A DNA stretch of 64,000 bases from Squalus acanthias (taxonomy: Eukaryota), in contig CM059431.1 in the NCBI GenBank assembly GCA_030390025.1, forward strand, positions 112,346,001 to 112,410,000, given 5' to 3'. The notes beneath the pieces are model-generated. The model saw only the letters and a list, made by a program, of their open reading frames with translations, made no database searches and had not been told where the DNA came from. Both the position numbers and the translations under genes were made by a program. This document shows positions 8,691-62,024 of this stretch, piece after piece. The first letter of the stretch is position 1, and the number at the start of each line of letters is the position of its first letter.

Positions 8691-8959
8691 CAGCTGACAT
8701 TGAAGCTTTCTTTCTGATGCTGGTGAATGCAATCCCATTAGAAACATCCATATCCTTAGTATTCCAAATTACAGTCATGGTTCTATCCACAAGAAGAGGA
8801 ATCCTACCGAGCCTAAAATCTACTGATATCAGTGGCTGTTAAGGCAACTTTTCGGATTGTGTGGCACATCTATCAGATGGCCTGGTGGTGTGTGGAGTAA
8901 TCAGAAAACAATAGGCTTGATTTTGCTTCTATGAGGAATGTATAAGATTACTGTAGGTG

Positions 8960-9140
8960 TTACATGGGATCACAGAGTGCTGTATGGTTCAGGGGACTGA
9001 GTACTGAGCCCTGTGGAGCCCCACTGGAAACAGCCTTCCAGTCACAAAAACACCAGTCGACCATTAGCTTTTGCTTCCTGCCACTGAGCCAATTTTGGAT
9101 CCAACTTGCCACTTTCCCTTGGATCACATGGGCTTTTACT
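8960..9140 (-). mobile_element. Old CR1 RT fragment
   Basis: WIQNWLSGRKQ..SGAPQGSVL. Confidence 0.75.
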
Positions 9141-9319
9141 TTTACATTGCCTTCATTGATTTTCAAAAAACTTTTGTGGCTCTCATAAAGAAACTGGAAA
9201 CTATGGGAATGCATGGTCAAATTTTGGATTTTATCTGGGATGTGTATTCCAGCTCCAAGATGGAAGCAATGGTAGATACGTGACTCATTGAGCCTATCTA
9301 TTTCCAAAGAAGAGTGAAG

Positions 9320-9800
9320 CAAAGTTGTCCACCGTTATCCATCCTATTCAAAGTGTTGAGTGACATCATAAGGTATGTTGTTGGAGTGTCTGTTCCGGAG
9401 TCCCTGAAAGTGCCATAGTGCTGCTTTGAATAGATGACATTGTGGTGTTGGCCCATTCGCCTGGGGATTTACTGTACTCCACCTTCAATCTTGAATGATG
9501 GGCAACCAATGGAATATGGAAAGGAGTGCCCCCACATGGTAGATTATGGTTTTGCATGGCTCAAGAAGAGATAGCAAGGTATTGATTGGATGATGAAAAG
9601 GGCATCTGTTCTAACTATTAATTTGTATCAGAACACTGGGGGTCCAAGTAGATGAGAACTTCAGCTCGGACACAGTCCTTCTTTATCTTTCTTGTTCTTC
9701 TTCAATGACTGCAAAGTACCAATGCAGGTTAAACTAGTGACATATAAAACATTTTAGTACAGTTCTATTTCAAAAGGGCTTCCTGTACAAGATGCAGGTC
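9320..9800 (+). pseudogene. Ancient non-LTR retrotransposon RT remnant, not CR1-like
   Basis: Degenerate LSILFKVLSDI..IDDIVVLAHSPGDL and KLVTYKTF resemble RT motifs; many stops. Confidence 0.4.
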
Positions 9801-11576
9801 AAAGCTATGAGGTGGATGTAAAGCAAAAAAGTAAAGTACAGGGAGAGCTTTCCAGCTAACCCTGACCTATAGCTGATTTCCCTAGAGAGGGAGCCAGCTC
9901 ATGGTAGGCACACCTCTTTGCCAAAGCCTCACATGAGAACCTGAATTAAACAATTGGTGATGAGTAAGCCTGGCATGTGGCACTGGATTTGGATGTCTAG
10001 AACATCAAGGTGGCTTGCATGGCGCAAGCAGCCTTGTGTAAGTCCTTCCACCATGCTGAAACCATTGTAGAGTGAAGACACTTGGAAAGACAGCCACTGG
10101 AAGGCATTACCTGGAGCTGGATAAGAGAACACATGTTCATAAATCTAGGGTGCGGTGCTTACCATGATTGAGTTGCAGATAGGCAAACAGCTGGCAATGA
10201 AACTCTGTATCTCTGAAAGATGCGACCATCATGTGATGCGGTATGCTACGTATTGTGGGGATTCTGTGATTCTGTATCCATGATGAGGTCATCAGTACTG
10301 TGGTAATGCACTCACACGTTTTATGGTGCATTCTGGTGCACACTTGGGATTCCCTAAGCTTTCTAGACTTAGGTCATTTGAAATTCGTTCCAAGCAAACC
10401 AAAACTTTACCTGTGTCGATTTCTCATTAGTTTGATTGGGAGACTCTCAAATATGGTCCACTAACAAGGCTCAAACTCACAGTTGTCTAACTAGTGACTT
10501 TGGGGTTCATGTGGCTCCACAATGACATGCATGGTGATAGAAGTTCAGAACCAAGTCAACTCTCTGTCATGGCCTTGGTATTGCAAAGCCTGAACCAGGC
10601 AGGCTAACAGTACTACAGGTCACCTTTGATGATTGACTAGCCTGTGTGGCTCCCTAATGGAACCTGGAGGAGTAAACCTGTGAGTGAGGACAAGATTCTT
10701 CCTATTCAGCATCAGATAACCCTACAAGCCAATGCCCTAACTGCTAAGTGGTTCTAACTGGACAAGCAGTGGAAAGCTTACCAGTGCTCTAGAATTGCAG
10801 GATTTTAGCTGGTTAAAATTCAGCAGTACGCATGTGCAACACTTGGGATTCCCTAAGCTTTCTAGACTTAGGTCATTTGAAATTTGTTCCAAGCAAACCA
10901 AAACTTTACCTGTGTCGATTTCTCATTAGTTTGATTGGGAGACTCTCAAATATGGTAATGGGTTTCCATGCACAGCAGACACTATGCTGACCAGAAAGAC
11001 AAATCAGACCACCGTAAAACTCTTCTGTCTCAAGTTTGCGAGCAATGAACAGTGAAAGTAACAGCCTGCAGTCCCATGCTCCAACTGATTTCATTGGTTG
11101 ATGCCGACAACATCCAATCCCAGTGAAAAAGGAACATGTATCTCGTGAATTGCCAAGAAGCTGATGTGAGGTGAGGGGGATTTTTGTTTCAGGCTCACAA
11201 TGGACGCGATATTGGTGGTCCCACGGTGCCCACCCAAGGCGGGCATCCTAAATGGATCGGGCCTCATTAAAAATTTTCAGAGGAGATGTGGGCTTGGAAA
11301 ATCAGTCAGCTTCCACACGGAGTGAGCCGGCAGGTAGGGCCTGTTGTTGGGGAGGGTGGGGTGGTGGGGGTTACGGGACACGTTTTGTGGGGTGGGGCGC
11401 GGGGGGGGGGGGGGGGGGGGGGGGGGGAAAGGGAAGGGAGAGTCAAGAACAGGCCGGCAGTGAACCTCCTGATCCCACATCAATCTGTTTTTTAAAAAAA
11501 AACTTACCTTTTTTTTTGTAGCGGCCTTCGGTGGTCCCTTTAAGGGCCGCTGGCCCACGGAAACCCCAGAGGAATG

Positions 11577-12900
11577 TGTAGGGGGTGGTGTGTTAGGGTC
11601 AGTCTCACCTCTGACTCAGTGAGCGCTTCGAATCGCTCCCACGCCCCTGGTTCTAGACCTTGGACTTATTTAGGGGTTGTGAACAAAGATGCAGTAGACA
11701 ACAGGTTTTGATGAAAGAACTTTGACTTTTATTCAAGGAAGTAAAACACCACACAAACACTCTTATCACTCTAAAGGTGGGGAACACTTCGGTACAAGCG
11801 AGGGAAATAACATTAGAATACTTCACCCCTCCCAATCCCACTTCACTAGCTAGGTTGGACTCTGGAGAACCAGGGGTAATGCTCACCAAATGAATCCTTG
11901 ACAGTTTAGAGTTAGGGTTTAGAATCTTGAGTAAAAGGTTTCGTAAGGCCCTTGTTGCCGCAAGGTGTCCGATGGTCACCTGAGGCAGTCGCTCTGGTTT
12001 CTTCTTGCGTGTCAGTCTGCTTGTGAAGCTGTTGGCCTTCTTTGTTCAACTTCTTGCTGTAACTCTGCCTCTGTTTAAACTGTCTTCTTCCGAGCTGTGG
12101 AACTGCCTTCTGCCTGCTTGTCCTGAACTCTGTTCAACACAGGCTTTCAATTCTGTTGAACTTGAACTCTTTTCTGGAGAACTTCAACTGTTGTAACTGC
12201 TTGATGGGCCTTCAATTATACTAAATTGAAGTGGCCTTGTCAAAACCAATCAAATTCTGGTCATTGTAAGACCTCGTTAACAGTAACGACTTTACTAAGT
12301 GTCAAATGGCTTACGTCCTGTCGATCTCTTCGGTTGATTACAGGTGATTGGTTTTGTGTTGAAGTGATTTAGGTTTCAGTTGAGGCCTGTTCATTCTATT
12401 GTCTTAGGTTTTTGGCGGGCTTGTTAACCTGTCCCTGTAGATACTGGGCTAATTGGGTTTTGATGGGGTGATGGGTGTACGGAATGTTTTATTGTTTTCA
12501 GGCTTCTAGCATCCTGTTTGGGCCTGGGGATATTCAAAAGGTGTCTTGAATTATTCAATTTTGGATGTGTTCGTGAGGTTTTGGGTGAGGTTCTTCCTCC
12601 TGCCTGGATTGCAGTGCAAACAAATTCCAGACAGCTTGACTGGGGCCCAATATCCAAAAGCTGTCCACTGCCTCGCCACCCCCCCCACCCCCCCCCCCCA
12701 TTTGTTTTTCCCAATAGTCATATCCAAAAGTCATTTTCCTCAGGGGTTTTCTTCCCTGATCTTTAAAAATGTCCAAAACTGAGGTTTTTGCCTCAAATCA
12801 CTTCATTTAGATCCCATCATCCCAAATTCGTATGAAAAATCCCCAAATCACCCCTTTTAGGGTTCTATACGAGTTTCTGGGGAATTTTGCGAAGTTTACA
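11577..12900 (-). mobile_element. Solo LTR, family A copy 3 (no matching TSD)
   Basis: TGTAGGGGGTGG..TTTACA; homologous blocks to copies 1 and 2; flanks AATG / CTTG. Confidence 0.8.
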
Positions 12901-14356
12901 CTTGGTGGGAACAGCCATTTCCGCCAAAGTTCCAGCAAGAAATTGGAAGAACCCCCACTGGAAATTCCAGGTGTACATTTTTGTTTTGAAGTTGTTCCAC
13001 TCCCAAAATATATGCAAGGAGTCAAGAGGAACAGGAAATACGGGTAAGGAAAAATGGTTTAATTTTTATGGAAAAAGGATTAGAACGTACAGCATAGATT
13101 AGAATGAACATCAGAAAAGTTCAAATATAATCAGGGAGGGAGATCAAGGCCAGACGAGCAGATGTGAAACGTTGACAAATATATTGTACTTTTATGTTTA
13201 TTTTTATACTTTAGGATTAATGCCATATTAATAAAGGTACTCCTAACATTTGAAAAGCTTTATTGCCATAATCCCCGAGTTTGTTGCAACTTCACAGTAT
13301 TTTAAGGTGGAAACTATGAAAAAGCGCAGGGACGGTGGTTAAATGGGGTCGGAAGGAGCAGTCAGCAATCGAAGGGTTAATTAGCTGCTTCCAGCAGTCT
13401 AAGAAGGATGACAACATTTAACATTTTGATTCATACTTTTGAATTGAAAGTTCTTTGATGAGATTGACTCTGGTTTCCGTATCCATTGAGAAGGCATTTC
13501 CTGAACTTTTTGGTGGCTGATGTTCCAGGCATTCCATGGGAAATCTCTTCAATATCTTCAGTGATTTCACTTTTGACTTGTCTGCTCCCTATACTGCAAC
13601 ATTTTGAAGAATGCACCACATGGTAAAAATTTGCACTTCTGTGTAAGAAACTTACCCGAGTGTGAAGCACTCCTGCTCCTTCCGACCCCATTTAACCAAC
13701 GTCCTCTCTGGACCCCGCATACCTCCCTGCCCGCCAGCCCCTAATTTCCTATGCTCCCGGCCCGACCCCTGTTCGCCCTCCCCTCTGCAGCCCCAGGCCC
13801 TGATCTGCCACGCTCCCGGCTCCTGCGACGTCAGGCCCGCCCCCAATCCCGACCCACGCCACGTCAAGCCTCCTGATCCCAACCCCCAGCCAACAGGACT
13901 AGAAGCTCCCTGATCCTGACCCCCTCACGACTATAGGCCTCCCGATCCCAACGTCCTCCACTACAGGCCCCCCGACCCTCAGACTGACCCGCAGCCCCGA
14001 CCCCCGAACCCTGACACTGCATTGTCCTATCCCCCCATCCCCGACCCGACCCCTGGACTCAATTGCCCAAGGGCCACTGTGATGCTAGCAGCAGCCCCAT
14101 TTCTCACCATTCCTCTCTAATCTTTGCCGGTGGCTGAAGTGGCATGCCAGCTCTGTTACAATGAGGTCCGATGCCCAATATCAAGGGAAGCTCGGACCAC
14201 AGCATTCTGGCGCAGGGTATAAACCCCACCCCCCATCACCGTGCACCCAAAAATGGACGCTCCCAAATTTCTAGGCATATGTGCTCAGATCTTGCAGTGT
14301 TTCTTGAAGCTACAGCATTCTGACTTATAGGTTAGAGTATGACTAACTAAGGCAAA

Positions 14357-15463
14357 GGCCCCGATATTTACTGGGGCGGGATTGCCGAATGGGGGTAGCA
14401 GTTATAATACGGGTTTCCCCGAACGCTGCGGTGTTTTAACTCCAAGGCGTGCGCTGCAGCAGGGGGCACAGCCCTGGAGCAGGTAAGTTTGGTGCTGCTG
14501 GGGGTGGTCATCACGAGGGAGGGGTGGTTACAGCGTTGTTTGGAGGGTCAGGGTGATCGCAGGGGGTCGGGAGAGATATGGGGCAGATGTGGGGAAGTCG
14601 GGGAGAGATCGGTGGGAGAGTCGGAGAGTGATCGGGCAGAGATGGTGGGGGCCGGGGAGAGATTGGAGGGAGAATCAGAGATCGGAGTGAGAGTTGGGGG
14701 GAATCGGAGTAAGAGATGGGGTGATAGGGGAGAGATCGGAGGGAGAGTCAGAGATCGGAGTGAGAGTTGGGGGGAATCGGAGTGAGAGATGGGGTGATAG
14801 GGGAGAGATCGGAGGGAGAGTCAGAGATCGGAGTGCGAGATGGGATGATAGGGGAGAGATCGGAGGGAGAGTCGGAGATCGGAGTGAGAGATGGGGGGAT
14901 TCGGAGTGAGAGATGGGGTGATAGGGGCGGAGGGAGAGTCGGAGATCTGAGTGAGAGATGGAGAGTTGGGGGGATTCAGAGGGAGAATCGGAGATCACGG
15001 GGGGGGGGCGGGGGTTGGTGACCACGAAGGTGTTGGGGGGTGATCGTGGAGGTGGTTGGGGGGGGATGCGGTTTACAGGTTAACTTGTTGTGAGGGGGTC
15101 TCCGATTGCGGGGGGTGGGTTATGTAGGGACCCTGGATCCAGGAGGTAGGTATAAAGGCAGTTACCTCTTGGATCCTGCAATCCCCGCCTTGCTGTAACT
15201 GCTGGGTTTTACGAATTGTGTAAAACCCGTCCACGTACAGTTAAAAACAAAATGGAGGATGAAAAAGAGGCTTCCAGCCTCATTATAATATTTAAATTGA
15301 TGTCCCGCCTCCTGGGAGCGGGTTGGTTGCCCACCCCCGTCCCGCCTCCGTTAAAATCGGAAGTGGGCGGGTTGGAGGTGGGTTCAGGTCGGAAATCCCA
15401 TTTTTAACAATTTAACTACCCCACGCCCCAACCCACCTGCTTTTTTAGGTTAAAATTCCCCCC
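14357..15463. mobile_element. Probable Harbinger-type non-autonomous element with internal GA-rich minisatellite
   Basis: Weak TIR-like ends (GGCCCCGATATTTA / TAAAATTCCCCCC); GGGCGGG and TTAAAAT subterminal motifs. Confidence 0.5.
14590..15000 (+). repeat. Purine-rich minisatellite built from GGGAGAGATCGGAG-like units
   Basis: Repeated GATCGGAG(G/T)GAGAG blocks; similar short tract at 30557-30665. Confidence 0.85.
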
Positions 15464-15609
15464 AACATTCCAAAAGTGCCTTCCACTGGTCATCTCTACA
15501 AAGTTAAGAATATATTTTTGGACATATAGTCAAGTGGCTTTCAATTATCCTATTATTATTTGATTGACATTGTTGATAACAGCTTCACTTAATAACATAA
15601 GAGCAGGAA

Positions 15610-16685
15610 TAACAACAGAAAACGCTGGAAAAACTCAGCAGGCCAGGTAACATCCGTGGAGAGAGAAACAGAGCTAACGTTTCAGGTCAAAGACCCTTCG
15701 TCAGAACTGAGAAAAAAGCAGGAAATGAAACAGATAAAAAAGCAAGGGGGAGGGGGAATAAAAGAACAAAAGGGGAGGTCTATGATAAGTAGAGACATTA
15801 AGAGATGCTCAAGGCAAGACGAGATGGTAATAGGACAGGTTAAGAAACAAAAGATGGCTCAGAAGTGTGAAGTGTGAAATGCTGGCAGAATGAGAGACAG
15901 CTGCTGTGGGGGAGAGAGAGGAAAAAAAAAAGGGAAAAGGCACAAACCAAAAGGGTGGATAAAATGTATATATGGTGGGGGCCGAGGTTATGATCTGAAA
16001 TTGTTGAACTCGATATTGAGTCCGGAAGGTTGTAAAGTGCCTAATCGGAAGATGAGGTGCTGTTCCTCAAGCTTACGCTGAGCTTCCGTGGAACAATGCG
16101 AGAGGCCGAGATGGTGAGGTCTGAGTGGGCGTGGAGCGGTGAATTAAAATGACAAGCGACCGGAAGCTCGGGGTCACCCTTAGGGACTGAACGGAGGTGT
16201 TCCGCAAAGCAGTCACCCAATCTGTGTTTGGTCTCCCCAATGTAGAGGAGACCACATCGTGAGCAGCGAATACAGTATACTAGATTGCAAGAAGTACAAG
16301 TAAATCACTGTTTCACCTGGAAGGGGTGTTTGGGGCCCTGGAGAGTGGGAAGGGGGGATGTATAAGGGCAGGTGTTGCATCTCCTGCGCTTGCACGGGAA
16401 GGTGCCGGGTGAAGGGGAAGGGGTGCTGGGGGTGATAGAGGAGTGGACTAGGGTGTCTCGGAGGGAGCGGTCCCTACGGAATGCTGAAAGGGAAGGTGAG
16501 GGGAAGATACGTTTGGTGGTGGATCACGTTGGAGGTGGCGGAAATGGCGGAGGATGATCCGTTGAATGTGGAGGCTGGTGGGGTGAAAGGCGAGGACAAG
16601 GGGAACTCGATCGTGGTTCCGGGAGGGAGGGGCCGGGGTGAGAGCAGAAGTGCAGGAGATAGAACGGACACGGTCGAGGGCCTGT
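15610..16685 (-). mobile_element. Penelope-like retroelement 3' part (GIY-YIG endonuclease remnant plus pseudo-LTR)
   Basis: Minus strand FTCTSCNLVYCIRCSRCGLLYIGETKHRLGDCFAEHLRSV; RVPLVLAFHP linker; hammerhead motif in terminal repeat. Confidence 0.9.
15672..15708 (-). ncRNA. Minimal hammerhead ribozyme motif
   Basis: AGTT CTGACGA A GGGTC TTT GACCT GAAAC GTT AGCT. Confidence 0.75.
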
Positions 16686-18049
16686 GTCGACCACGGTACA
16701 GGGGAATAAGAGCAGGAGTCGGCCATTCGGCCCTTCGAGCCTGCTCCGCCATTCAATAAGATCATGGCTGATCTATTACCTCAACTCAAATCCACCTTCC
16801 CGCACTATCCACATATCCCTTGGTTCCCTTATCGATCGCTATCTCGAATATGCCCAATGACTGAGCAATTTCAATCACATTGATTTGAAACTTTCAACAA
16901 ATGATCCTCAAGGAATCTCCAAGGAAGGATCCCCAAGAAAGTTCCCTAAGCTTCAACAATGCAGCTTGACTCAAAATAAAAGAATCATGAATTAATAAAG
17001 GGTAACTTGCACTCATAAGCTACATTTTACAATTGGCACTAGATACTTTACCTGTATATTGGGGCAGTAATATCCCTTGTGTGTGATGCAAGCCGCAGAA
17101 TTATTTATCGGGATCCTGATTTCAATATTTATGCAGCCCACTGCCCCCAGGATACAGGGGAATCTAGCACGGCATAAAAACATTGCTGTGTGACAACCTG
17201 CATCTCTAGTGACTGGCCAAAGCTGTAACTCCTTGTTATTAGTAGAAGTGCATAATTCACCACTTCAGTTCAATTGCACACAGTGAGCTTAGCAATTCCA
17301 TCAAATCCCTTCCTGTGAACTGGAGGGAGCTTGTGACTCAGCATTTGATTTTGCAGCAGTCAACTGTAGCAATCAGGAAGGGCTGTAGCAATCAGGAATG
17401 GAAAGTCAAGAGTGCCACTAAGAATATGGCAGAGGTTGGGTCGGGCATCACAGAACGCTTGTGCAATACTGCTGTTCAGTCAAAATCAAGCAACTGGTTA
17501 GTAGATGCTGTCAACAGGATTTTCTTTTCTCTGCCATAGACCACTTCCCCCTCTGTCTAAGGAAATACTTAACTGACGTCAATCCTAAATCAATCTTCTC
17601 TTGCTGTAATGTATCTTAAAATATCGTTTCAAGATTACTTTCTCTATTTTGTTAATTATCATGTACTTGTATAAGGTCCCTTCTGAAATGTGGCTCATGA
17701 GGCGTTTCTGAGCTCAGGGATTGTGTATCTAACTGGTGCTATTTAATTCTAATTGAGTTGTAACAAATTGCCACACATAGACTTCAATGGGGATAATAAT
17801 ACTTACTTTTTTATTTTATTCCGATCTGTTCCCTGCCACCAATTAGTTTCCTAATTGGCATTTTAGTCAAAGTGCAGTAAAATGCATGGAGAGTTTATAT
17901 GGAGAATATTGTCATTTCAGTTCAGTCCAGGCGGCAGTATATCACTGAGTGTGCAGTAATATTGTCCACCCACAATCTAGGCACTAGTCCTTTGTATCCA
18001 AATACCAATATCTGGTTTTATATTTCATTAAAAAACGAAGTCAAAAGAT

Positions 18050-18697
18050 AAGGTGGTTAAGAAGGCATATGGAATGCTTGCCTTTATTAGCCGTGGCATC
18101 GAATACAAGAGCAGGGGGGGTTATGCTTCAACTGTATAAAACACTAGTTAGGCCTTAGCTAGAGTACTGCGTGCAGTTCTGGTCACCACATTACAGGAAA
18201 GATGTGATTGCACTAGAGAGGGTACAAAGGAGATTTACAAGGATGTTGCCGGGAGTAGAGAATCTTAGCTATGAGGAAAGACTGGATAGGCTGGGTTTGT
18301 TTTCCTTGGAACAGAGGAGGCTGAGGGGAGACCTTATTGAGGTGTATAAAATTATGAGAGGCCTAGATAAAGTGGATAGAAAGGACCTATTTCCCTTAGC
18401 AGAGGGGTCAAAAACCAGGGGGCACAGATTTAAAGTAATTGGTGGAAGGTTTAGAGGGGAAATTTCTTCACCCAGAGGGTGTGGGGGTCTGGAACTCACT
18501 ACCTGAAAGGGTGGTAGAGGCAGAAACCCTAACCACATTTAAAAAGTACTTGGATGTGCACTTGGGATGCTGTAACCTGCAGGGCTATGGACCAAGAGCT
18601 GGGAAGTGGGATTAGGCTGGATAGCTCTTTGTTGGCCGGCACGGACACGATGGGCCAAAATGGCCTCCTTCCGTGCTGTAACTTCCTATGATTCTAT
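18050..18697 (+). mobile_element. CR1 3' fragment
   Basis: QFWSPHYRKD..LERVQRRFTRM; CTATGATTCTA tail. Confidence 0.9.
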
Positions 18698-18935
18698 AAG
18701 CAATAAATTCACTTCGAAGTATTTGCATTCAGATTGGATTGGCTGCCTCACACTGATGTATAGCATTATGTCACTGTTCCAAATGTATCAGAATTTACTC
18801 TGAGGGCATTATCATCATAAGGGCTCTGGAAAATGGGTTCAAAAGGAATGCTTTTGAAAAATGGAAAATGGGAAATACGGTTGTTTGTAATCTGAGTTCA
18901 GCGGAAACAATAGATAAGGAAGTATTAAATACGTT

Positions 18936-19699
18936 GGGCCAGAAATTCGGCTCTCCGGCTTCCCGCGGGTGCAAGCATCGCGCGCGTACTTACCTACCGC
19001 GCCTGCTGTTGTGCTTCGGGCCCATGAGGACTTCGGGTCCTGGGCCTCCTGCAGCTGCCGACGCGCAGTGCTTGTGTATCCCAGGGGCGCAGTTAGTTCG
19101 AAGCGTCCCCTGGGATCACGTGGGCCATGGAGAGCCAATCGGAGCAGGGCATTTTCATTCATAGATTTGACAGGAAGACCTGTCAAATCTATGAATAGAG
19201 ATCGGCCCCAAAACCACACTTAAACTTCAAATATTTTTTTTTTTTAAATCACATTTTTAAAATAACTATAAGTTACATAAATTAACTACTTTAAACAAAA
19301 ATTAAAATTTTTGAAAAAATTAATTATACTTTTTAACGGTGCTAAAATAAACTTACCTTTCTTTAAAGTATGTAATAATGATAAACCTGTTGAAAAAATG
19401 TTTAAATTGTAATTAATTAACCACTTACCTTGTTAAAAACAGGCCTTGGGCCTCCTTTTTAAAAGCGCAGCTTCTCCATACTTACCCTCACGGAGAAACC
19501 TGAAAAAAAAAAACGAAGTTCGCTGCATGCGCGCAGCCTCTCCCGCGCACGCGTTCGACTTCTGAACCCCTCCCTTCAGGGGAACGGAAGTTCCGCTTTC
19601 CCGCGCATGCGCAGTGCATGCGGGAAACCGGCACTTCAGGTGGCCTTACGGGTGAGTACACAACGCGTACTCACCCGACAAGAGCCGAATTTCTGGCCC
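18936..19699. mobile_element. Harbinger-type MITE
   Basis: Perfect 19-bp TIR GGGCCAGAAATTCGGCTCT; 3-bp TSD GTT; GC-rich arms, AT-rich core. Confidence 0.9.
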
Positions 19700-19855
19700 G
19701 TTATGTAATATTCATCAGAGCTGGAGGTTGAAATGCAGGCAACTGAGAGAGGAAGTAGGAATCCAACAGGTCCTACCGTTCCCAGTACTGACGGAGGAAG
19801 TGAATGTGGAACAAGCAAGACCCTAAGTGAACAAACAAGATCAGCTGATATGAAC

Positions 19856-20010
19856 TAAGAAAGAAACATAAGAAATAGGAGCAGGAGTAGGCCATTTGGC
19901 CCCTCGAGCCTGCTCCGCCATTCAATAAGATCACGGCTGATCTTCTACCTCATCTCCACTTTCCTGCACTCTCCCCATATCCCTTGATTCCCTTAATATT
20001 CAAAAATCTC
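19856..20010 (-). mobile_element. Short CR1 3' tail (similar tails at ~16700-16865 and ~50060-50168)
   Basis: CATAAGAAATAGGAGCAGGAGTAGGCCAT..CTCGAGCCTGCTCCGCCATTCAAT. Confidence 0.85.
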
Positions 20011-31174: not shown

Positions 31175-31936
31175 ACTACCGCCACGATCTCCTGCGCCGG
31201 CAGATCGTGACGTCAGTCGAGTGCGCAATGCCCCGGTAGCACCCCAGAGCAGATATTGAGTGGCGCCCCCTGCCTTACCGCCTGCCGCTAGCAACGACAG
31301 GTTGAGGGGAGCGTTTTGCAGTCAGGAAGGGACTGGGGGAGCGCTATTTAAAGGCGACCGCTTCCTGCCTTTTATTGTTGGTGACATTTTTGAACCACGC
31401 ATTCTGAGAGAGAGAGAGAGAGAGAGAGACTTCTGGAGAGATTCAACGCTGTGTGAAGGAGTTTTGGGTACTGAGCAGCACTTTGCAGGTTCATTTTGAT
31501 TTGCCCTTCCTTGTATCGATTTAGAAGAGAGACTGTGGGGGCTGCACTCTGAGCTCTTTCCCTGGTTCTCTCCATTGTTCTTTCCAGCAGATTTGATGTA
31601 CAGGTCTCTCCAGGCCGAGATTCAAGGCTGCAATGAGCAGGCTGTGGATGGAAAGCAAGATCAACCCTCCCCTTTAAGAACTGGCCCGTGCCATTGTGTC
31701 TGTGTTCCATTGCTGACTGACATCACATGAGCTTCGCCAGCGCTCTGAGGTAGCGCCTCGCTCCTCGGCCTTTGCACCTTAAGACAGGTGTGAAGCGCCT
31801 GATTTAGCGCTCCACTCACCTCCAGGGGCGATAAAAGTCAAGTTTGCAGTCTGAGGCGATAATTAGCGCCAGGCGCTAATCTTTGCACCCGGCCGATAAT
31901 TGCGCCCCAAATGGGGCGATACTGAATTTCTCCCCC
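31175..31936 (-). mobile_element. Internal-deletion derivative of the Harbinger family, one end lost
   Basis: 31175-31470 matches reverse complement of ~54520-54820 including (GA)n; 31555-31936 matches reverse complement of 50564-50940 including MERTRERA start; ends AATTTCTCCCCC + TAA. Confidence 0.88.
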
Positions 31937-32170
31937 TAAGTAATTTGGAAGTTAGGATTGAAATACTTTTTATAAAATCCCCCTCTTTAACGCAATTGTG
32001 ATTAGGGCGTTAGCCAAGCAAAGTATTATACTAACTTTCTGTTTTTCTTTACAATCAATAGCTTTATCTATCAATTTAATAATTTTGAAATTTCACCAGA
32101 AAAAGATAAAGCAGTTCTATTCCCAGTGGATGGCACTTACTTTTTTGTAATAAGCGATAAAAGATTTTGA

Positions 32171-49308: not shown

Positions 49309-50920
49309 GGGTGATAGTGATGTTGTTTTAGATTGTCAGGTGGAATCCACTGGGTCCGACACCATGACGCATATCAAAATCTAGCAGAGCTTTCACACAG
49401 CACTGAAAGTTAAAAACAAAAAGCAATCAATGTTGTCTCATGTTACATTTTCTTCGTGTTGAAAAATCTATACATGGATTCTACACAGAGAGCAGTTTGG
49501 TTATAATTATTTTCCTTTGTAATGTTTTCGTCGGGTTTGATGACCTGGATTTCAAAATAAAGGTGACATTTATTAATTCATTTCTCACAAGCTCTTCAGT
49601 TGAATCTGTCAATCATGATACGTAACTGGCTTTTGAAATATTTCTCAGAATTGATGCACCGTTATGAGAATCACATTGATGAATACATTATCTCAATGAC
49701 CTATGGATACAATGCAAGGTCTTCATACATTCTAAATGTAACACGAAAGGTCTCCCATGACGCAAAGGAAAATGGATGCAAGCTATAAACCGCTGACATA
49801 CTTTCCCCATAGTTCCCTAACTGATCTCCAACCTAATTAGATCACTGATGAGCAATCTTAGAAGAACTCCTTGCAATTATTCTCCCATTAGACACTAATT
49901 TGGTAAAGCGAAAATAGCGAGAAGTTGAGACCTAACTGTAACAAATAGAAAGATTTGGTCACAATTATAATCATAGGAAAGTCTACATTTTAATATCTAT
50001 TTATAGGAAACTAGCAGTTATTTAAAATGTTGCTACTGCTGCTTATTTTTGGACTCGAAGTGAATCAAGAGATATGGAGATCGTGTGGGAAAGTGGAGAT
50101 GAGGTAAAAGTTCAGCCATGATCTTATTGAAAGCCTACTCCTGCTCCTATTTCTTATGTTCTTATGTTATGGGGACTCCGAAGGAGGTGAAATTCATCTT
50201 GGCCAGTAGCGCAAAACGGGTGATAGCATACCGGCAGCCTGTTTTAAACTCCATTTTCTTTCCTATTGACTTCTATTGTCTTAAATGATTAAACTGCTAG
50301 AACATTATAGCCCACATGTGGCTATTATTTTTTCTGCAGGCAAAACTGGGCTACCTGTGTACACAATATGAAGTGTGGGTTTCCGCTCGTACCTATTAGC
50401 TGCCTTACGCGCTATTAAACGAAAGTGGCCCTGCGCTTCAGTACTTGGACCAATCACATCCCGATACTGACTGGGGATTTTTGAATGAATGGCATCCGTG
50501 TATCAATGTCATTTTAGAAAATGTGAATGGGCTTCTTTGCTGTGATATAAGGAAAAACAGTAAGGGGTAGAAATTAGGTCGCGCCACATTTGGGGCGCAA
50601 ATATCGTCCGCGCGCAAATATTAGCGCCTGGCGCTAATTATCGGCACTGACAGGAAACTTCACTTTTACCGCCCCGGGAGGTGAGTGGAGTGCTAAATTA
50701 GGCGCTGCACACCTCTCTTAAGGCGCAAAGGCCTAGGAGTGAGGCGCTACCTCAGCGCACGAGCGCAGCGCAGCTGCTGCCAGTTAGCGAGGGAACACAG
50801 ACACACTGGCGCCGGACACTTCTTAAAGCGGGGGGGGCCACTTGCTCCCCAGCCACACCCTGCTCATTGCAGCCTTGAATCTCAGCCTGGAGAGACCTGT
50901 AATCCATTTTGCTGCCAAGC

Positions 50921-51157
50921 ATGGAGAGGGTGAGAGAACGCGCTCATCGCTTCACCGAGCGGGCCTTGGATGCTCTGGTTGACGCAGTGGAGCGCAGACG
51001 ATGCATGCTGTTCCCGGAGAGTGGCAGGAGGCCTTTGCCACGCGAGTTCAGAAGAGTGTGGAGGGAGGTGGCTCAGAGCGTCTCCTCCAGGAGCATGGTG
51101 CCCAGGACCCATGTCCAGTGCCGCAAAAAGTTCAACGACCTCACTCGGGTCGTCAGG
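50921..51157 (+). CDS. Harbinger Myb/SANT DNA-binding protein, exon 1 (79 codons)
   Basis: ATG 50921; RERAHRFTERALDALVDAVE..W.EVAQSVS..RT..QCRKKFNDL is a Myb/SANT-like trihelix; ends AGG|GTGAGT, phase 0. Confidence 0.9.
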
Positions 51158-51298
51158 GTGAGTGGCTTTTTCTCAATACCTCTCCATCCCTCCATCTCAA
51201 CCTCACTCTATGGCCAGAGGGTCTTAAAACCCCAATGCACAACACTCATGCAACACCTATGGCCCTTTCATCAAACACACACACACATTCCACACTTT

Positions 51299-51575
51299 GC
51301 ATACAGTAAGGGCTATTCACCTATGGGAGGCACATCAGGCAAGACCATGGCTGCATACAGTAAGGGCTATTCACCTATGGGAGGCACATCAGGCAAGACC
51401 ATGGCTGCATACAGTAAGGGCTATTCACCTATGGGAGGCACATCAGGCAAGACCATGGCTGCATATTGTAAGGGCTATTCACCTATGGGAGGCACATCAG
51501 GCAAGACCATGGCTGCATATTGTAAGGGCTATTCACCTATGGGAGGCACATCAGGCAAGACCATGGCTGTATATT
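51299..51575 (+). repeat. 54-bp tandem repeat, about 5 copies, in intron 1 of the Myb/SANT gene
   Basis: Unit GCATACAGTAAGGGCTATTCACCTATGGGAGGCACATCAGGCAAGACCATGGCT, near-identical copies. Confidence 0.95.
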
Positions 51576-51603
51576 GACTCAGATGCTGTCCTTTTTCTTG
51601 CAG

Positions 51604-51766
51604 GCTAAGCTGGCTCATAATCGGAGACAACAGCAACGGACGGGTGGAGGGCGGCTTCAGCTGCAACCCCTCAGCGATCTGGAGGAGCGCGTCCACAGGA
51701 TTGTGGCAAGCCGGGTGATCGGTCCCGTCGCCACTGGAGACGCCGACCCCGTTGTGGACAGCAATG
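51604..51766 (+). CDS. Harbinger Myb/SANT protein, exon 2
   Basis: Acceptor CTTTTTCTTGCAG|; AKLAHNRRQQQRTGGG..PLSDLEE as expected after the SANT domain; donor G|GTAAGG, phase 1. Confidence 0.85.
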
Positions 51767-51925
51767 GTAAGGTCATCACCTTTTTGTCCTCTGTCCTTCC
51801 ACTTGTCCCTCACAATACCAGCCTTTGACACTTTCAATCCAACTTGCTAACTCGCTGCACTTATTCCTCCCTTACTGCCACCCTGTCCTCACGCTAAAGC
51901 CACTCTTGTACCTCCCTGCTTTCAG

Positions 51926-52992
51926 ATGGTGATTCACCAGCTGAGGAGATGGTCCCTGAAGCTGCCACTGGGAGTGATGCTGCAGCTGAGGAGGAAGAGG
52001 AAGCCGGAGCATCAGTGCCACCCTCTCCCGAGGAAGCCCATGGCCACACTGGGAACACGCCTTCCCCGGAGGGGAGCAGGGGGGAAGGGGCTGATGATGG
52101 TGAAGTTCCAGGACCCAGCGGGCTGCAGCAACGCCATTGGGGGGGGAGGGAAGAACGGGGGAGCAGGGGGGAAGGGGCTGATGATGGTGAAGTTCCAGGA
52201 CCCAGCGGGCTGCAGCAACGCCATGGGGGGGGGAGGGAAGAACGGGAGCCTTCTCCCCAGAGGGAGAGTATGCCAGACACTCCTAATGCAATGGACGCAG
52301 AGGAGGAGCGGCTGATTGCAGAAATGAACAGCCAGGCGGTGGTCATGCACACTGAGCTCATGGGTGCAGTGGGAAGGGTGCCCGAATGCATTGAGGCACT
52401 GGCAAGGAGTGTGGAGCACTTCGCTGTAGCACAGGCGGATGCCACACTAAAGCTTACTGCTGCAATTCAGTCACTGGCTGCCAGGAACCCATCTGAGCCT
52501 GCTCTCATGCAGACTCAGATTGAGGCCACGCGAGCACTGACTGCTGCCATCCTCGATGGTTCGTGCACATGTCCCTGGGGCTGTCACCGCGCCGCAGCAG
52601 GCCAGCAATCTGTTCTCCGGCAAATTGCTCCGGATGCTGAAGTGCTGCCCCGTGGGAGTGCCAGTGTGTCGGGCGAGCAGGGAGTTGCTGTCCTCTCTCA
52701 CGATGACAGCATTCCTGCTGCCAACACTGTCACTTCTCCACTGCACTTGCCACCGCCTGTAGGACAGACTGCTGCCGCCCATGCAGAGTTGGTGCAGTCT
52801 GCAGCCGGGCCCTCCAGGCCCAGAAGTGGTCGAGGCCGTCCTTCAGGGGCATCTGCAGTGTCAGGGTCTGACAAGCAGCAGCCTTCCACCAGCCTTGCTG
52901 CAGCCACTGAGGTCCCATTACGGAGGAGCAGTAGGGTTAGAAGGGGGGAAGTGCGCAAGGGAAGGAGATCACCCTCGAAGGGCAAAAAGTAG
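51926..52992 (+). CDS. Harbinger Myb/SANT protein, exon 3 (acidic, low-complexity and helical C-terminus, basic tail)
   Basis: Acceptor CTGCTTTCAG|AT completes the phase-1 codon and runs in frame into ORF 51949-52992; spliced product ~488 aa; AATAAA near 53170. Confidence 0.8.
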
Positions 52993-53286
52993 GAGGTGTG
53001 CCAAAATGCTGGTCATTTTTTTATTAAAGGCCGAGGTTCATGGCCCAACTTTTGTTTAGTGTTTTGGACATTATCTCCAGGTTGTGAGAACCAGTTATGT
53101 TATTGACTGTTTTTTTGTGTTTATTTCTATGAGTTTGTCATGAGGAATTGACACACACAGAGTTTGTACAATAAATAAGTTTCTGTATTCAAAATATACA
53201 TGGCTGGTGGTTGGAATTATTGGTGCCTTGGCCGGCTTAGGGGTTGCGTGCTGGGTTGATTCGTGTTTGTAGCACTGGCAGGGGCC

Positions 53287-54447
53287 CTAGAAGCGGCTTG
53301 CTATTAGTCGTTGACGGACGGCCCTTGCAGTTTGACCATTGTGGGCCGCCCTCCTGCCTTGGTGCTGCTGCTGATCATCGTCCTCGGCCTGTTCCTCCTC
53401 TTCCTCCTCCTCCTCTTGTGGTGCTGCAAGGCCTGGTGGCATTGGCTGCGTCCTGAGGATTGCCATGTTGTGCAACATGCAGCACACCACTACGAATTTG
53501 GAAACTTGCTCAGGCGAGTACTGCAGGGCTCCTCCGGAATGGTCCAGACAGCGGAATCGTTGTTTGAGCACGCCGATTGTGCGCTCAATAATGTTCCTCG
53601 TTGCTTGTTGGCTTTCCTGGTACCGCAGCTCAGCAGGGGTGTTTGGCGCACGGAGCGGTGTCATCAGCCAGGTGCTCAATGCGTACCCCTTGTCCCCCAG
53701 AAGCCAACCAACTGGCTGATGCGGTGCCTCGAAAATTTCTGCCACAGTACTCTGGCGCAGGATGAAAGCATCGTGGCAGCTGCCCGGATAGTGGGCATTG
53801 ACAGCGAGAATCACCTGTCTGTGGTCACAGACCAACTGCACATTCAAGGAATGGAACCCCTTTCTGTTCCGGAACTCCTCTGCATTCTCTCGCGGAGCAC
53901 GCAAAGCCACATGCGTGCAGTCAATGGCGCCCTGCACCATGGGGAAGCCCGCTACCCTCGCAAAGCCCATAGCACGGTCATGCTGCTTGTCTGGGGTCAT
54001 AGGGAAGGAGATGAAGTCTCGTCTCCTTGTGAAGAGGGCATTGGTGACCTGCCGGATGCAGCGATGCACCGCAAACTGGGAGATATTGGCGAGGTCCCCA
54101 ACAGCAGCTTGGAATGAGCCAGTGGCGTAGAAGTTCAAAGCCACTGTGACCTTCACTGCCACCGACAGAGACGTCCTGGACCTCAGCTGAGGCTGCAGAT
54201 CTGGCTGCAGCAGGTGGCAGAGCTCAGTGACCACCTCCTTGCTGAATCGCAGCCTTCGCAAACACAGCTCCTCAGACATGTGGATGTAGGAGAGCTGTTC
54301 ACGATATACCCTGGGAGGGTAAGCTCTCCTGTACATGCGCCTGATGGCCCTCCTCCGTCTGGCCATCATTGCCACTCTCTGTCTGCGTCTCACTCTCCTC
54401 CGATTGAGCTGGAGCAGGACGACGCCCCCAATCATTGCAGCCCCCAT
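53287..54447 (-). CDS. Harbinger (HARBI1-like) DDE transposase, 386 aa, uninterrupted
   Basis: Motifs GAIDCTHV, RNRKGFHSLNVQLVCD, YPGSCHDA, LLGDKGY, RNIIERTIGVLKQRFRCL, CCMLHN; candidate catalytic D/D/E all present. Confidence 0.95.
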   Translation of the reverse strand: MGAAMIGGVVLLQLNRRRVRRRQRVAMMARRRRAIRRMYRRAYPPRVYREQLSYIHMSEELCLRRLRFSKEVVTELCHLLQPDLQPQLRSRTSLSVAVKVTVALNFYATGSFQAAVGDLANISQFAVHRCIRQVTNALFTRRRDFISFPMTPDKQHDRAMGFARVAGFPMVQGAIDCTHVALRAPRENAEEFRNRKGFHSLNVQLVCDHRQVILAVNAHYPGSCHDAFILRQSTVAEIFEAPHQPVGWLLGDKGYALSTWLMTPLRAPNTPAELRYQESQQATRNIIERTIGVLKQRFRCLDHSGGALQYSPEQVSKFVVVCCMLHNMAILRTQPMPPGLAAPQEEEEEEEEQAEDDDQQQHQGRRAAHNGQTARAVRQRLIASRF

Positions 54448-54642
54448 ATTCTCTTTGCCAGAAAAGTAATGAGGTACAGCAACGAAAGTAGCAGCAAAGT
54501 TAGGATGAACTAGGCAAAACTACCTCACAAAGCGTTGAGTCAATGTAGAAGTCTCTCTCTCTCTCTCTCCGAATCTCTCTCTCTCTCTCAGAACGAGTGG
54601 TGCATAAATGTCGACCACAGAAAAAGACAGGAAGAGGCCCCC

Positions 54643-54650
54643 TTTAAATA
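54643..54650 (-). promoter_or_regulatory. Candidate TATA box of the transposase gene
   Basis: GCGCTATTTAAAGG ~200 bp upstream of the ATG; same motif kept in related elements near 31345 and 56157. Confidence 0.5.
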
Positions 54651-55365
54651 GCGCCCCCCCCCAGCCCCACACCGATTGATAACGTTCCAGTCTTCCGGTC
54701 GTTGGAAGCGCCAGGCGGTAAGGCAGGGGGCGCCACTCAATTTCCGCTCCGGGGCGCCCCAAGGGCGTTGCACCACGGAATGACATCACAATCTGCGCGC
54801 GCAGGTGGTCGCAGCGGTAAGTTTTAGCGCCGCCGCACAATCTCAAGTTAAGTTCTCGAGCGGCGCAAACAGCGCTGCGCCCGGGCGTTAGCGCCTTAAC
54901 GCCCCATTAGCGCCCATTTAAGGCGCTAACGGGAGGCGCAACCAACTGAATTTTTACCCCTAAGTTTGTTACTACATCGGTAAGTACAGGGAATTGAGCT
55001 TCGCGAAATTGCTTAATGCTTTATAGGCGGTGCCTTTGTAATTGACTCCTATGGTACTGGCACACGGTTAGCACTACTTGCCCTATATAGGTGGCTGCCC
55101 GAGATAAGTATGGATGGTATAAGTGGATTCTCTGGGATGGCGACCTGCAGTGCCAAGTTAGGTAGCTCTCCTCCGTCCAACAGGGAGTCAGGTGCTGTGC
55201 CACTCTATTACTTGCCCATAGACTCTGCTTTGTATCTCCACCTTGGGTTTTCTTTCATTCAATTTCTCACCCTCCCCATCAGCTTTCACCAAGGTTGCAA
55301 AATACCCAAAATTGATTTTCAGGCTTGATGAAGGGTGAAATTAATATTGTCCCCACAAACACGTA

Positions 55366-57281
55366 GGCCTGAACTTTGCCTACCTGGGTGGGTCCGGTGC
55401 GGGCGGTGTCCGCGGCGAGTCCCGACCCCACTGCTGGTTCCATCCCACTGTTGAAAATGAACTTGCCTTAATGGGGCCTATTTAGCCCGCACAGCGCGTT
55501 ACCCGGCCCAATTAGATGGAGCGGGTCTGGTGACTTCATTCATGACGTGTTTTCAGTCGGGATCCTTAAAGGGACCCTGGCCACATTACATTTGACGTTT
55601 AATCTAACAAAGTGGGTGTTGAATCTTTACTGTACAATACCATAATAAAAGTTATATATGAGTGACAAAGAAATATATAAATATTATCATTAAGTAATAT
55701 GACTCCATCTATAAATACGATCAAGAACATCTTTTAAAAAGTACATTAATTGGGAAGTTATTGGCGCTAACTTCGCCGGGGCGCTAAATTAGCGTCCCGT
55801 GACGGAAATTAAGTGGTAGCGGCCCAAGAGGGAAGCGGGTCGCTACTGGAAGCGCCCCGCCTCCCTCTTGGGGCGCTGCTAGGGAATATCGCGGCACTAT
55901 GTGCCACGGTATTGCAGGCCTTCCTCCCCTTCTTAAAGGGGAGGGGCCTTGCGCAGTGCGACCCGGGGCCCAGCTGGGCCTCCGGGTATCGGGAGTGCCG
56001 GCAAAAGAGCCCGGCACTCAAGAGAAGTGCCGGGCTCATGGAGCGCAGCCGGCACTCCGCGGGGGGGGGGGGGGGCGGGTAAGGAGGCCGGGGACGGGAG
56101 CGGAGGCAGGTGCTGGCAGGCAGCCAGCAACAAAAATGGCCGCCCCGCACCTCGCCTTTAAATAGCGCTGCCCCGGCCACAGGTAGGCCCCCCTGACCCC
56201 GTCGGACATAGCGTCTGGCGGTAAGTCAGGGGGCGCTACCGAAGATTGCGGCCGGGGCGTGAGCGGGGCGCTGTGCACGGCGATGATGTCATCGCTGGTG
56301 GCGCAGCGCCGCGGGGCGCTACCGGTTACCGCCGCCGCTAACCTCCCGCTGAATTTCGCTAGTTGCTTTGCAACCGAATTTTTCCCCCATCGACTTTTGT
56401 ATCAGTAACTGACAAACCGTGTAAGTGGAGCTTACAATGTGTTTCTGGGATTTCTACAGCTCTTCCGTTGAAGTTAACAATGGATAAATGAGAGAACCTC
56501 CACAGAAATTCACCCCAAAGTCTCAGACTGAAAAATTAAATTAGTCATATTCAGGGACTGAAAGCAAATTGAACCAGTGGAATGAGTGATGAGAATGAAA
56601 TTGTTATGGTTGATGACTTGATTTAATCTGTAACTGGACAATCACAGTATACTGTGAGGAAAACCTGACCAGAAACAACACACAAATTTATTTAAATGGC
56701 ATGTGTCATTTTTTTATAGTGCAGATCAATTCACTGCAATTACTGTTGAGTTGGAAGGCAACAGCTGAGAATGGCCAGTGAAAAATGTATTTCCCTCATC
56801 ATCCAGGGCTGGAGGGGAGCCTTCAGTACTCATATCCCTTGAGGAATTTCTGAATTAACATTTATCAGTAGCCTTTCAAGTAGAACAGAATCTCCATCAA
56901 TCTGTTAGCTGATGTAATCAACATGTTTTTATTTTGGTTTGTTTTCCATGCTGCCAAGTAATCAGCTGGAGCAATGGACACGGAACTCCCGCCTCAGGTT
57001 AACAGACGTGGTTCCTGAGCTGTGTGAATCCCGTGGCCATGCAGGGAAATTTAAAAAGTATGTGAAAAACGGCTCTTAAGTGTCTGCAAACTACCTGATA
57101 ATTATCTCAATTGGGTCCCCCGCCGCTGCCAGTCGGATCAGCTCCACGATGAAAGACGCTCCTGGGAGAAAGGCGGGTGGGAGCGAGATGACAGTGGGTT
57201 CCCGACCCGCTGTCAAAAATAACAATCTTCCCACCCGACCCTCCACCGATCTCCCCCGCTACCACCCAGGAAAATTCGGCC
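55366..57281 (-). mobile_element. Non-autonomous TIR element (copy 2, inverted relative to copy 1)
   Basis: Collinear with reverse complement of 25380-25465 plus 27691-28956; ends GGCCTGAACTTTG / GGAAAATTCGGCC. Confidence 0.85.
55764..56388 (+). mobile_element. Truncated Harbinger-type non-autonomous element nested in 55366-57281
   Basis: GGCGCTA motifs, CCTTTAAATAGCGC, terminal GAATTTTTCCCCC. Confidence 0.7.
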
Positions 57282-61705: not shown

Positions 61706-62024
61706 TCTGAAATAACAACAGAAAACGCTGGAAAAACTCAGCAGGCCAGGCAGCATCCGTGGAGAGAGAAAGAGAGTTAACGTTTCAGGTCGATGACCTT
61801 TCGTCAGAACTGTGAAGAGCCGGAAATCAAATAGATTTAAGGCCAAATTTTACTCTGGCCTTAAATCTATTTGATTTCCGGCTCTTCACAGTTCTGACGA
61901 AAGGTCATCGACCTGAAACGTTAACTCTCTTTCTCTCTCCACGGATGCTGCCTGGCCTGCTGAGTTTTTCCAGCGTTTTCTGTTGTTATTTCAGATTTCC
62001 AGCATCCGCAGTATTTTGCTATCG
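61706..62024. mobile_element. Inverted Penelope pseudo-LTR pair forming a 140-bp-arm palindrome
   Basis: Arms 61706-61845 and 61856-61995, 10-nt spacer; flanking 17-bp duplication TACATGCGATTTTCTGA. Confidence 0.9.
61890..61926 (+). ncRNA. Minimal hammerhead ribozyme motif (mirror copy 61775-61811, minus)
   Basis: AGTT CTGACGA A AGGTC ATC GACCT GAAAC GTT AACT. Confidence 0.8.

What the first reader, a model, noticed from the sequence alone, without database searches (positions are those of the whole stretch)
50564..54960. Apparently intact two-gene Harbinger transposon, a candidate active element in a shark
Seen: perfect TAA TSD, matching TIRs, a stop-free 386-aa transposase with candidate D/D/E, and a Myb/SANT gene whose three exons splice in frame at canonical GT-AG sites (phases 0 and 1). 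CpG-rich ends look undecayed while neighbouring LINEs are broken. Known: Harbinger transposition needs both proteins and most vertebrate copies are fossils. Inference: this copy is young and possibly mobile.
Basis: partly seen in the sequence, partly recalled or inferred. Interest (0 to 1): 0.75.

Follow-up and report, generated by a model that had tools for sequence, protein, structure and literature searches.

The report
Young, coding-intact shark Harbinger transposon copy
This is a complete cut-and-paste jumping gene of a known two-gene type, from a very abundant family in a shark, with both genes still readable and the insertion apparently missing from two other samples, so it moved recently in evolutionary terms, but nothing here shows that it still moves today.

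Summary
The anatomy is real: TAA duplication, 12-bp terminal inverted repeats (11 of 12 match), a 386-aa DDE transposase (D176/D252/E288) and, tail to tail, a three-exon Myb/SANT gene whose spliced product aligns to homologues across both junctions. Contigs of two DNA samples pile up on the element thousands of times deeper than on its flanks, so it is a high-copy family, not a domesticated gene. Contigs of a third run differ from it at 25 of 3,961 bases and end in other flanks. In both deep samples a contig at flank depth runs through the left junction without entering the element and stops aligning exactly where an empty site would; the joint row itself was cut from the output, so the empty site is inferred. 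Against 'active now': no spliced transcript was shown, two conserved residues near the catalytic Glu are changed (N277Q, H280Q), intact frames are expected by chance at this divergence, the CpG argument is weak, and sharks mutate so slowly that 'young' can mean a million generations. The scan has noted other Harbinger copies in this genome, three with a broken gene. Verdict: new member of a known kind; about one in three that the family is still mobile.

The parts
50561..50563 (.). left target-site duplication, TAA
50564..50575 (+). left terminal inverted repeat, 12 bp
50576..50863 (.). left subterminal region rich in GGCGC/GCGCC words; candidate binding sites of the Myb-like protein (function inferred)
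   Evidence: 21 of 28 GGCGC words lie in the 600 terminal bases, 7 in the 3,797 internal bases
50921..51157 (+). Myb-like gene exon 1 (Myb/SANT domain, aa 1-79)
   Evidence: PF13873 E 1.3e-9; 74 relatives
51158..51603 (+). intron 1 (phase 0), holding about five 54-bp tandem units at 51298-51573
   Evidence: junction supported by homology; splicing not shown in RNA
51604..51766 (+). Myb-like gene exon 2
   Evidence: 51 of 71 aligned homologues extend to aa 95 or beyond with the spliced product, 4 of 71 with the unspliced read-through
51767..51925 (+). intron 2 (phase 1)
   Evidence: P0124 and P0125 align across it
51926..52992 (+). Myb-like gene exon 3 to the stop; in-frame 87-bp duplication at 52071-52244; basic C-terminus (possible nuclear signal, by eye)
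   Evidence: P0124 aligns over aa 11-485, E 2e-69, with a gap of about 30 aa at the duplication
52993..53286 (.). shared 3' region of the two convergent genes; AATAAA at 53170 on plus, two on minus (53020, 53120)
   Evidence: use as poly(A) signals not tested
53287..54447 (-). intronless transposase, 386 aa; D176, D252, E288; N277Q and H280Q at otherwise conserved positions
54661..54948 (.). right subterminal region rich in GGCGC/GCGCC words, with a 14-bp perfect internal inverted repeat (54886-54931)
54949..54960 (-). right terminal inverted repeat, 12 bp
54961..54963 (.). right target-site duplication, TAA; the six bases on each side of the target match the zebrafish Harbinger3_DR target consensus at 9 of 12
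   Evidence: 55 of 63,985 sites in the window score as well
31177..31936 (-). non-coding relative outside the element: 81% to the left end, 75% to the right subterminal region; one intact terminus followed by TAA
   Evidence: loose ends at 50901 in X2 and X17 read like this derivative (compared by eye)

Best explanation
A full-length, autonomous-type Harbinger (PHIS superfamily) DNA transposon copy from a family that expanded to very high copy number in this shark lineage. This insertion is younger than the common ancestor of the window's haplotype and those of samples X1 and X2, and both genes are still open mainly because little time has passed on a slow clock. Mechanism, inferred from zebrafish Harbinger3_DR and not tested here: the spliced Myb/SANT protein binds the GGCGC-rich subterminal repeats and brings the transposase into the nucleus; the DDE transposase cuts at the 12-bp termini and inserts into a loosely palindromic A-rich / T-rich target, duplicating 3 bp; the same proteins move non-coding derivatives such as the one at 31177-31936 in trans. 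Shown: anatomy, open frames, catalytic triad, multicopy status, near-identity to another run's contigs, target match. Inferred: empty site, copy number, splicing, protein roles. Most likely state today: the tail of a recent burst, moving rarely or no longer.
For: Anatomy. Transposase departs from consensus at 3 of 95 conserved columns (3%) against a median 12.6% for 120 homologues, only 3 of which depart less; model has D176 in a strand and E288 in the long helix. Multicopy: 26,899 (X1) and 41,516 (X2) contigs laid on 5,161 bases; summed depth 1.4e5-1.5e6 in bins inside against 14.5-19.8 for single flank contigs, ratios of 5,500 to 20,000 at the four low points computed (not a copy number, overlapping contigs are summed). 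Other insertion sites: X6 loose ends at 50562, 50564, 54961; 5 X17 contigs loose behind 54960 with 0.55 agreement. Youth: X6 contigs differ at 25 of 3,961 bases, 0 of 515 in 53430-53944; X1 holds 0.89 of 431 sampled words. Empty site: X1 record 1 and X2 record 18 match the left flank with 0 differences, stop aligning at 50560 and carry 96 more letters, at flank depth; 50560 is exactly the leftmost placement of a 50560-to-54961 joint; flanks differ at 1 of 429 (X1) and 4 of 696 plus a 12-bp gap (X2) bases.
Against: The joint row was not displayed (46 joints hidden; the 15 shown have summed depth 38 or more, this one would have about 34), so the 96 letters were not read. The window copy is a minority type in X1/X2 and closer to X6 (organism B), so X1/X2 may be a sister species, not the same species. 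The 8 X17 pieces listed differ at 49 of 1,927 bases (2.5%), so much of the family is older than this copy. Q277 occurs in 0 of 115 homologues. One X17 contig (50870-51327) crosses the first donor unspliced; that run may be DNA.
Confidence: 0.6

Rival explanations
1. The family is still transposing in the germ line and this copy is a working autonomous element. Same anatomy and mechanism as above; differs only in present activity.
For: Both frames open and triad intact; inferred absence from two samples; among the 40 best-supported variant rows only 51630 (synonymous) differs from 99.9% or more of depth in all four runs, so private mutations look few; three other copies noted by the scan in this genome each have a broken gene (unchecked), which makes a doubly open copy the natural source of both proteins.
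Against: With the epaulette shark rate of 7e-10 per base per generation (PMC10587355) even 0.02-0.14% private divergence is 0.3-2 million generations (another species, wide interval), so polymorphism does not mean activity today. Under neutral decay both frames stay open with probability 0.45 at 0.3% and 0.20 at 0.6% divergence (assumed indel rate), so intactness needs no current function. N277Q and H280Q lie on the helix of E288.
Confidence: 0.3
2. The copy looks intact but is functionally dead: its subfamily carries a crippled transposase (N277Q, H280Q) or a damaged Myb protein (87-bp duplication, private R-to-W change at aa 351) and was moved in trans by other copies.
For: N at 277 in 105 of 115 homologues and Q in none; H at 280 in 96 of 117; duplication absent from P0124 and P0125; W351 differs from 96-100% of depth in all four runs.
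Against: The X6 contig is identical across 53430-53944, so both Q residues are shared with at least one other copy, and no variant row at these codons is among the 40 shown (150 hidden): they are probably family-wide in a family that spread widely. The duplication is in frame and in a low-complexity region.
Confidence: 0.07
3. A domesticated, fixed HARBI1/NAIF1-like gene pair.
For: Databases name the nearest proteins 'putative nuclease HARBI1'; several elasmobranch relatives look like cross-species conserved, catalytically altered genes.
Against: Termini and duplication intact; tens of thousands of contigs and other flanks; insertion apparently absent from two near-identical haplotypes; best database relative only 65% identical.
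Confidence: 0.03

Closest known systems
Zebrafish Harbinger3_DR (reconstructed; Sinzelle et al. 2008, not held; known here from passages of PMC9710019, and PMC3016246)
   Same: DDE transposase plus Myb-like protein; subterminal repeated motif; target flanks match its palindromic consensus at 9 of 12 positions
   Different: Central triplet here is TAA, not CWG; this is a natural copy with both frames open, not a reconstruction; activity untested
NuwaI / NuwaII groups of the PHIS superfamily (Han et al. 2015, PMC4482050; passages and section 8)
   Same: About 4.4-4.7 kb, two genes, Myb/SANT partner, termini starting GGG or GG, 12-bp repeat at the short end of their range
   Different: Target here is G|TAA|G: fits TNA and the 3' G of NuwaII but not the 5' C; one-sided flanks in X6 read CAA, CTT and TTT, so the triplet seems loose; no tree against named Nuwa transposases was made
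Harbinger-Snek of sea kraits (PMC8437027; parts 1-2 of 4 read)
   Same: Recent mass expansion of a two-gene Harbinger in a vertebrate, with intact copies (269 in L. colubrina) and non-autonomous derivatives
   Different: There: horizontal transfer inferred and reads over both coding regions shown. Here: nearest proteins are elasmobranch, transfer not tested, expression not shown
Coelacanth, Pleurodeles and teleost Harbingers (passages of PMC5381603, PMC5741667, PMC9179366)
   Same: Recently expanded or expressed two-gene Harbingers in slow-evolving or large vertebrate genomes
   Different: PMC9179366 found none in elephant shark and asked for other cartilaginous fishes to be examined; shark genome papers list the superfamily only at repeat-class level (PMC12498223, PMC8455134)
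HARBI1, NAIF1 and MSANTD1-4 (domesticated; passages of PMC9392472)
   Same: Same protein domains
   Different: Those are fixed host genes of jawed vertebrates; this is a bounded, multicopy insertion

Membership tests
PIF/Harbinger (broad sense, PHIS superfamily) | DDE transposase of the Harbinger/IS5 type with intact triad | tested here: met
   PF13359 E 5e-38, model positions 1-158 of 158; D176, D252, E288 align with D in 98, D in 93 and E in 76 of 120 homologues
PIF/Harbinger (broad sense, PHIS superfamily) | Second gene for a Myb/SANT-like protein | tested here: met
   PF13873 E 1.3e-9; full-length alignment to P0124, E 2e-69
PIF/Harbinger (broad sense, PHIS superfamily) | Short terminal inverted repeats | tested here: met
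   12 bp, 11 of 12
PIF/Harbinger (broad sense, PHIS superfamily) | 3-bp target-site duplication, typically TWA | tested here: met
   TAA on both sides; empty site inferred, joint not displayed
PIF/Harbinger (broad sense, PHIS superfamily) | Interspersed multiple copies with different flanks | tested here: met
   depth contrast and loose ends at both termini in X6 and X17
NuwaII group | Target C|TNA|G | tested here: inconclusive
   G|TAA|G at this site; TAA|G at 31937-31940; one-sided X6 flanks do not fit
NuwaI group | CWG duplication | tested here: not met
   TAA here
Active autonomous element | Spliced Myb-like mRNA and transposase mRNA | tested here: inconclusive
   one run guessed to be RNA, contigs only, no splice joint among the 15 joints shown, 46 hidden
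Active autonomous element | Insertion polymorphism | tested here: inconclusive
   element absent at the left junction in contigs of X1 and X2; empty site inferred; same species or sister species not known
Active autonomous element | Excision and integration by the two proteins; de novo insertions | not testable with these tools
   needs a cell assay or pedigree data
Domesticated HARBI1/NAIF1-type gene | Single fixed copy without termini | tested here: not met

The most novel reading that the evidence does not exclude
This family is transposing in living sharks, and this copy, unaltered, is a working two-protein Harbinger: a natural, non-reconstructed active vertebrate Harbinger, a continuing source of structural variation in genomes with one of the lowest point-mutation rates known, and a ready assay system with a sequence-selective target.
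Probability: 0.3. Interest if true: 0.65.

Novelty: new member of a known kind. Interest (0 to 1): 0.38.

Why it matters
Shark repeat landscapes are described as LINE-dominated, and one survey found no Harbinger in elephant shark and left other cartilaginous fishes open. A high-copy two-gene Harbinger family with an open copy and an apparently unfixed insertion shows a recent DNA-transposon burst in this lineage. If it still moves, it would add insertion variation where point mutation is very slow, and give a natural vertebrate Harbinger for mechanistic work; no solved structure of a close relative was found by sequence or fold. If it does not, it is an ordinary young copy of a known superfamily.

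Tried and rejected
No whole genome is held for this window, so copies could not be counted or aligned directly. No RNA holder was listed on record; four rows are guessed RNA and one of them (X17) was laid: no splice joint displayed, which is not counted for or against expression. Exon 3 alone found no homologue in the word-index search; homology appeared only through full-length relatives. PDB search by profile: 3 matches at E 0.12-0.18, none meaningful. Foldseek against PDB: none at E 0.001 or better; the weak top rows are mostly DDE transposases and integrases; the wider fold search was not run. CpG richness rejected as a dating argument. Summed contig depth rejected as a literal copy number. 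An unspliced single-exon Myb reading was rejected by homology. Look-ups of earlier findings by protein and by DNA gave nothing, so I cannot say whether the other Harbinger copies noted in this genome are the same family. Sinzelle 2008 and Smith 2012 are not held. PMC4255032 does not mention Harbinger in its main text, so it is not a precedent for Harbinger polymorphism. No complex prediction was run: the pair is a textbook one.
Full report
OBSERVATION. The element runs from 50564 to 54960 between two TAA triplets, with 12-bp termini that match at 11 of 12 positions. Among 656,831 position pairs on either side of the genes only this pair meets both tests; 0.023 were expected by chance. The minus strand carries an open 386-aa frame, 54447-53287, that matches Pfam DDE_Tnp_4 over the whole model at E 5e-38. 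The plus strand carries a Myb/SANT gene in three exons; of the four GT-AG combinations near the stated sites only 51157/51604 with 51766/51926 gives an open frame, 488 aa. The two genes converge on a 294-bp spacer. Neighbouring LINE frames are in pieces.

THE PROTEINS. The transposase search gave 377 relatives, 120 listed; the best are elasmobranch proteins, at most 65-66% identical, all automatically named 'putative nuclease HARBI1'. D176, D252 and E288 sit in the conserved columns; 53 of the 109 homologues that cover all three keep the full triad. The window protein departs from consensus at 3 of 95 well-conserved columns, against a median of 12.6% for the homologues. Two of the departures, N277Q and H280Q, lie on the helix that carries E288 in the AlphaFold model (mean pLDDT 80); Q277 occurs in 0 of 115 homologues. 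An X6 contig is identical over this stretch, so they are not private damage, but their effect is unknown. For the Myb gene, 74 relatives of exon 1 were collected; 71 aligned, and 51 of the 71 extend to residue 95 or beyond with the spliced product against 4 of 71 with the unspliced read-through; P0124 aligns over residues 11-485 at E 2e-69. The exon model is therefore supported by homology, not by RNA. Exon 3 holds an in-frame 87-bp duplication and intron 1 a 54-bp array.

COPY NUMBER AND AGE. No genome is held. The run search listed 24 rows, 20 holding the stretch, 16 with half its words or more, under seven organism codes. Four of the 24 were laid on 50200-55360 at 90% likeness. In X1 and X2 (organism A, two samples, two studies) 26,899 and 41,516 contigs were laid; summed depth inside the element is 1.4e5 to 1.5e6 per bin, while single contigs on the flanks have depth 14.5 to 19.8. 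The ratio is 5,500 to 20,000 at the four low points I computed. The tool warns that this is no copy number, since overlapping contigs are summed; I read it as 'probably thousands of copies'. X6 (organism B, a very small run) covers nearly the whole element with 25 differences in 3,961 bases, 0.63%, and its contigs leave the element at 50562, 50564 and 54961 into other flanks; five X17 contigs do the same at 54960. The listed X17 pieces differ by 49 of 1,927 bases (2.5%), and at several sites the window's letter is the minority in X1 and X2 but shared with X6. So the family has older and younger branches, and this copy is on a young one.

THE INSERTION SITE. X1 record 1 (197 letters, depth 19.8) and X2 record 18 (195 letters, depth 14.5) match the left flank with no difference, stop aligning at 50560 and carry 96 more letters. 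A filled allele would run on into the element; a sample with both alleles should break its contig at the junction (inference from how such contigs are built). 50560 is exactly the leftmost placement of a joint to 54961, which is how the tool reports joints. The right flank is present at the same depth from 55033. The joint row was not displayed: 15 are shown, 46 hidden, and this one would fall just under the depth of those shown. So absence of the element at this junction in both samples is what the contigs show (rare variants are dropped from contigs); that the continuation is the clean empty site is inferred. Flanks differ from the window at 1 of 429 (X1) and 4 of 696 bases plus a 12-bp gap (X2), within the diversity reported inside shark species (0.002 in PMC10587355; 0.632% heterozygosity in PMC10468316), but a near-identical sister species is not excluded. 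The six bases on each side of the target match the Harbinger3_DR consensus given in PMC3016246 at 9 of 12; 55 of 63,985 sites in the window do as well. The lead to test the target came from earlier notes.

WHY 'YOUNG' IS NOT 'ACTIVE NOW'. At the epaulette shark rate of 7e-10 per base per generation, 0.02-0.14% private divergence is 0.3-2 million generations and half the distance to X6 about 4.6 million; the rate is from another species and has a tenfold interval. With an assumed indel rate of one per ten substitutions, both frames survive neutral decay with probability 0.77 at 0.1%, 0.45 at 0.3% and 0.20 at 0.6%. Open frames thus argue for youth (the chance is 0.001 at 2.5%), not for function. 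The CpG excess is confined to the ends (0.87 and 1.19 against 0.45 inside) and comes from a repeated word: 21 of 28 GGCGC lie in the terminal 600 bases; three more diverged non-coding relatives in the window have CpG o/e 0.67-0.91. No splice joint was displayed for X17, one of its contigs crosses the first donor unspliced, and the run may be DNA; I count this neither way.

MECHANISM. From PMC9710019 (passages): both proteins are needed; the Myb-like protein of Harbinger3_DR binds a subterminal motif, binds the transposase and is needed for their nuclear co-localisation. By anatomy the same is expected here, with the GGCGC-rich ends as the binding sites (inferred), a DDE cut at the termini and a 3-bp duplication. 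The non-coding relative at 31177-31936 (81% to the left end), whose type also shows as loose ends at 50901 in X2 and X17, is the kind of passenger these proteins would move in trans.

COMPARISON. It meets every tested feature of PIF/Harbinger in the broad sense. Size, GGG start and Myb partner resemble the Nuwa groups of PMC4482050, but the target is G|TAA|G, which fits neither NuwaI nor fully NuwaII. Intact or expressed vertebrate Harbingers are in print for sea kraits, Pleurodeles, coelacanth and teleosts, so the kind is known. In sharks I found only class-level mentions and a report of absence from elephant shark. Searches for a described shark family were (listings only for most hits); none showed one, but Repbase, Dfam, subscription journals and supplementary repeat libraries were not searched and may hold it. 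The scan itself has eight Harbinger-related notes in this genome, describing a very abundant family and three copies with a broken gene (unchecked, and whether it is this family is not known).

PAPERS SEEN. Passages: PMC9179366, PMC9392472, PMC12498223, PMC8455134, PMC10587355, PMC10468316, PMC5381603, PMC5741667, PMC9710019, PMC3016246. Abstract and passages: PMC4255032. Passages and section 8: PMC4482050. Parts 1-2 of 4: PMC8437027. Abstract and outline: PMC13668399. Not seen: Sinzelle 2008, Smith 2012, Kapitonov and Jurka 2004 (known through citing papers). No supplement was read.

VERDICT. A real, young, coding-intact copy of a high-copy shark Harbinger family, with an insertion that is probably not fixed. 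New member of a known kind; interest 0.38. Probability that the family is still mobile with this copy competent: about 0.3.

Noticed in passing
P0004/P0005, P0009/P0012, P0039/P0040, P0021/P0024 (proteins): Pairs of 'HARBI1'-named proteins from different shark and ray genera are 84-89% identical, and 7 of the 8 have lost the catalytic Glu: candidates for several elasmobranch-specific domestications of Harbinger transposases. Synteny and selection not tested.
   Followed up: partly
window 2239-2982, 31177-31936, 55765-56388: Three CpG-rich non-coding elements with Harbinger-like termini, 70-81% like parts of this element's ends where they align (the third matches only over 30 bases); several more short elements with similar terminal words lie in the window.
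   Followed up: partly
window 51298-51573: About five near-identical 54-bp units inside intron 1; X6 contigs break at the array.
   Followed up: no
Related species or horizontal transfer, untested.
   Followed up: no
window 50464-50561: A second contig in each of X1 and X2 matches this part of the left flank at 9 differences in 98 bases, so the target lies in or beside a low-copy older repeat.
   Followed up: no
window 16912-17243 (minus): Decayed fragment of another Harbinger-type transposase, 30-37% identical, E 2e-8.
   Followed up: no
window 61711-61990: Two inverted, near-identical copies of a short interspersed repeat form a long hairpin-like arrangement.
   Followed up: no
P0006: A sawshark gene model joins a Myb/SANT domain to a Harbinger transposase in one 523-aa protein; may be an annotation merge.
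   Followed up: no
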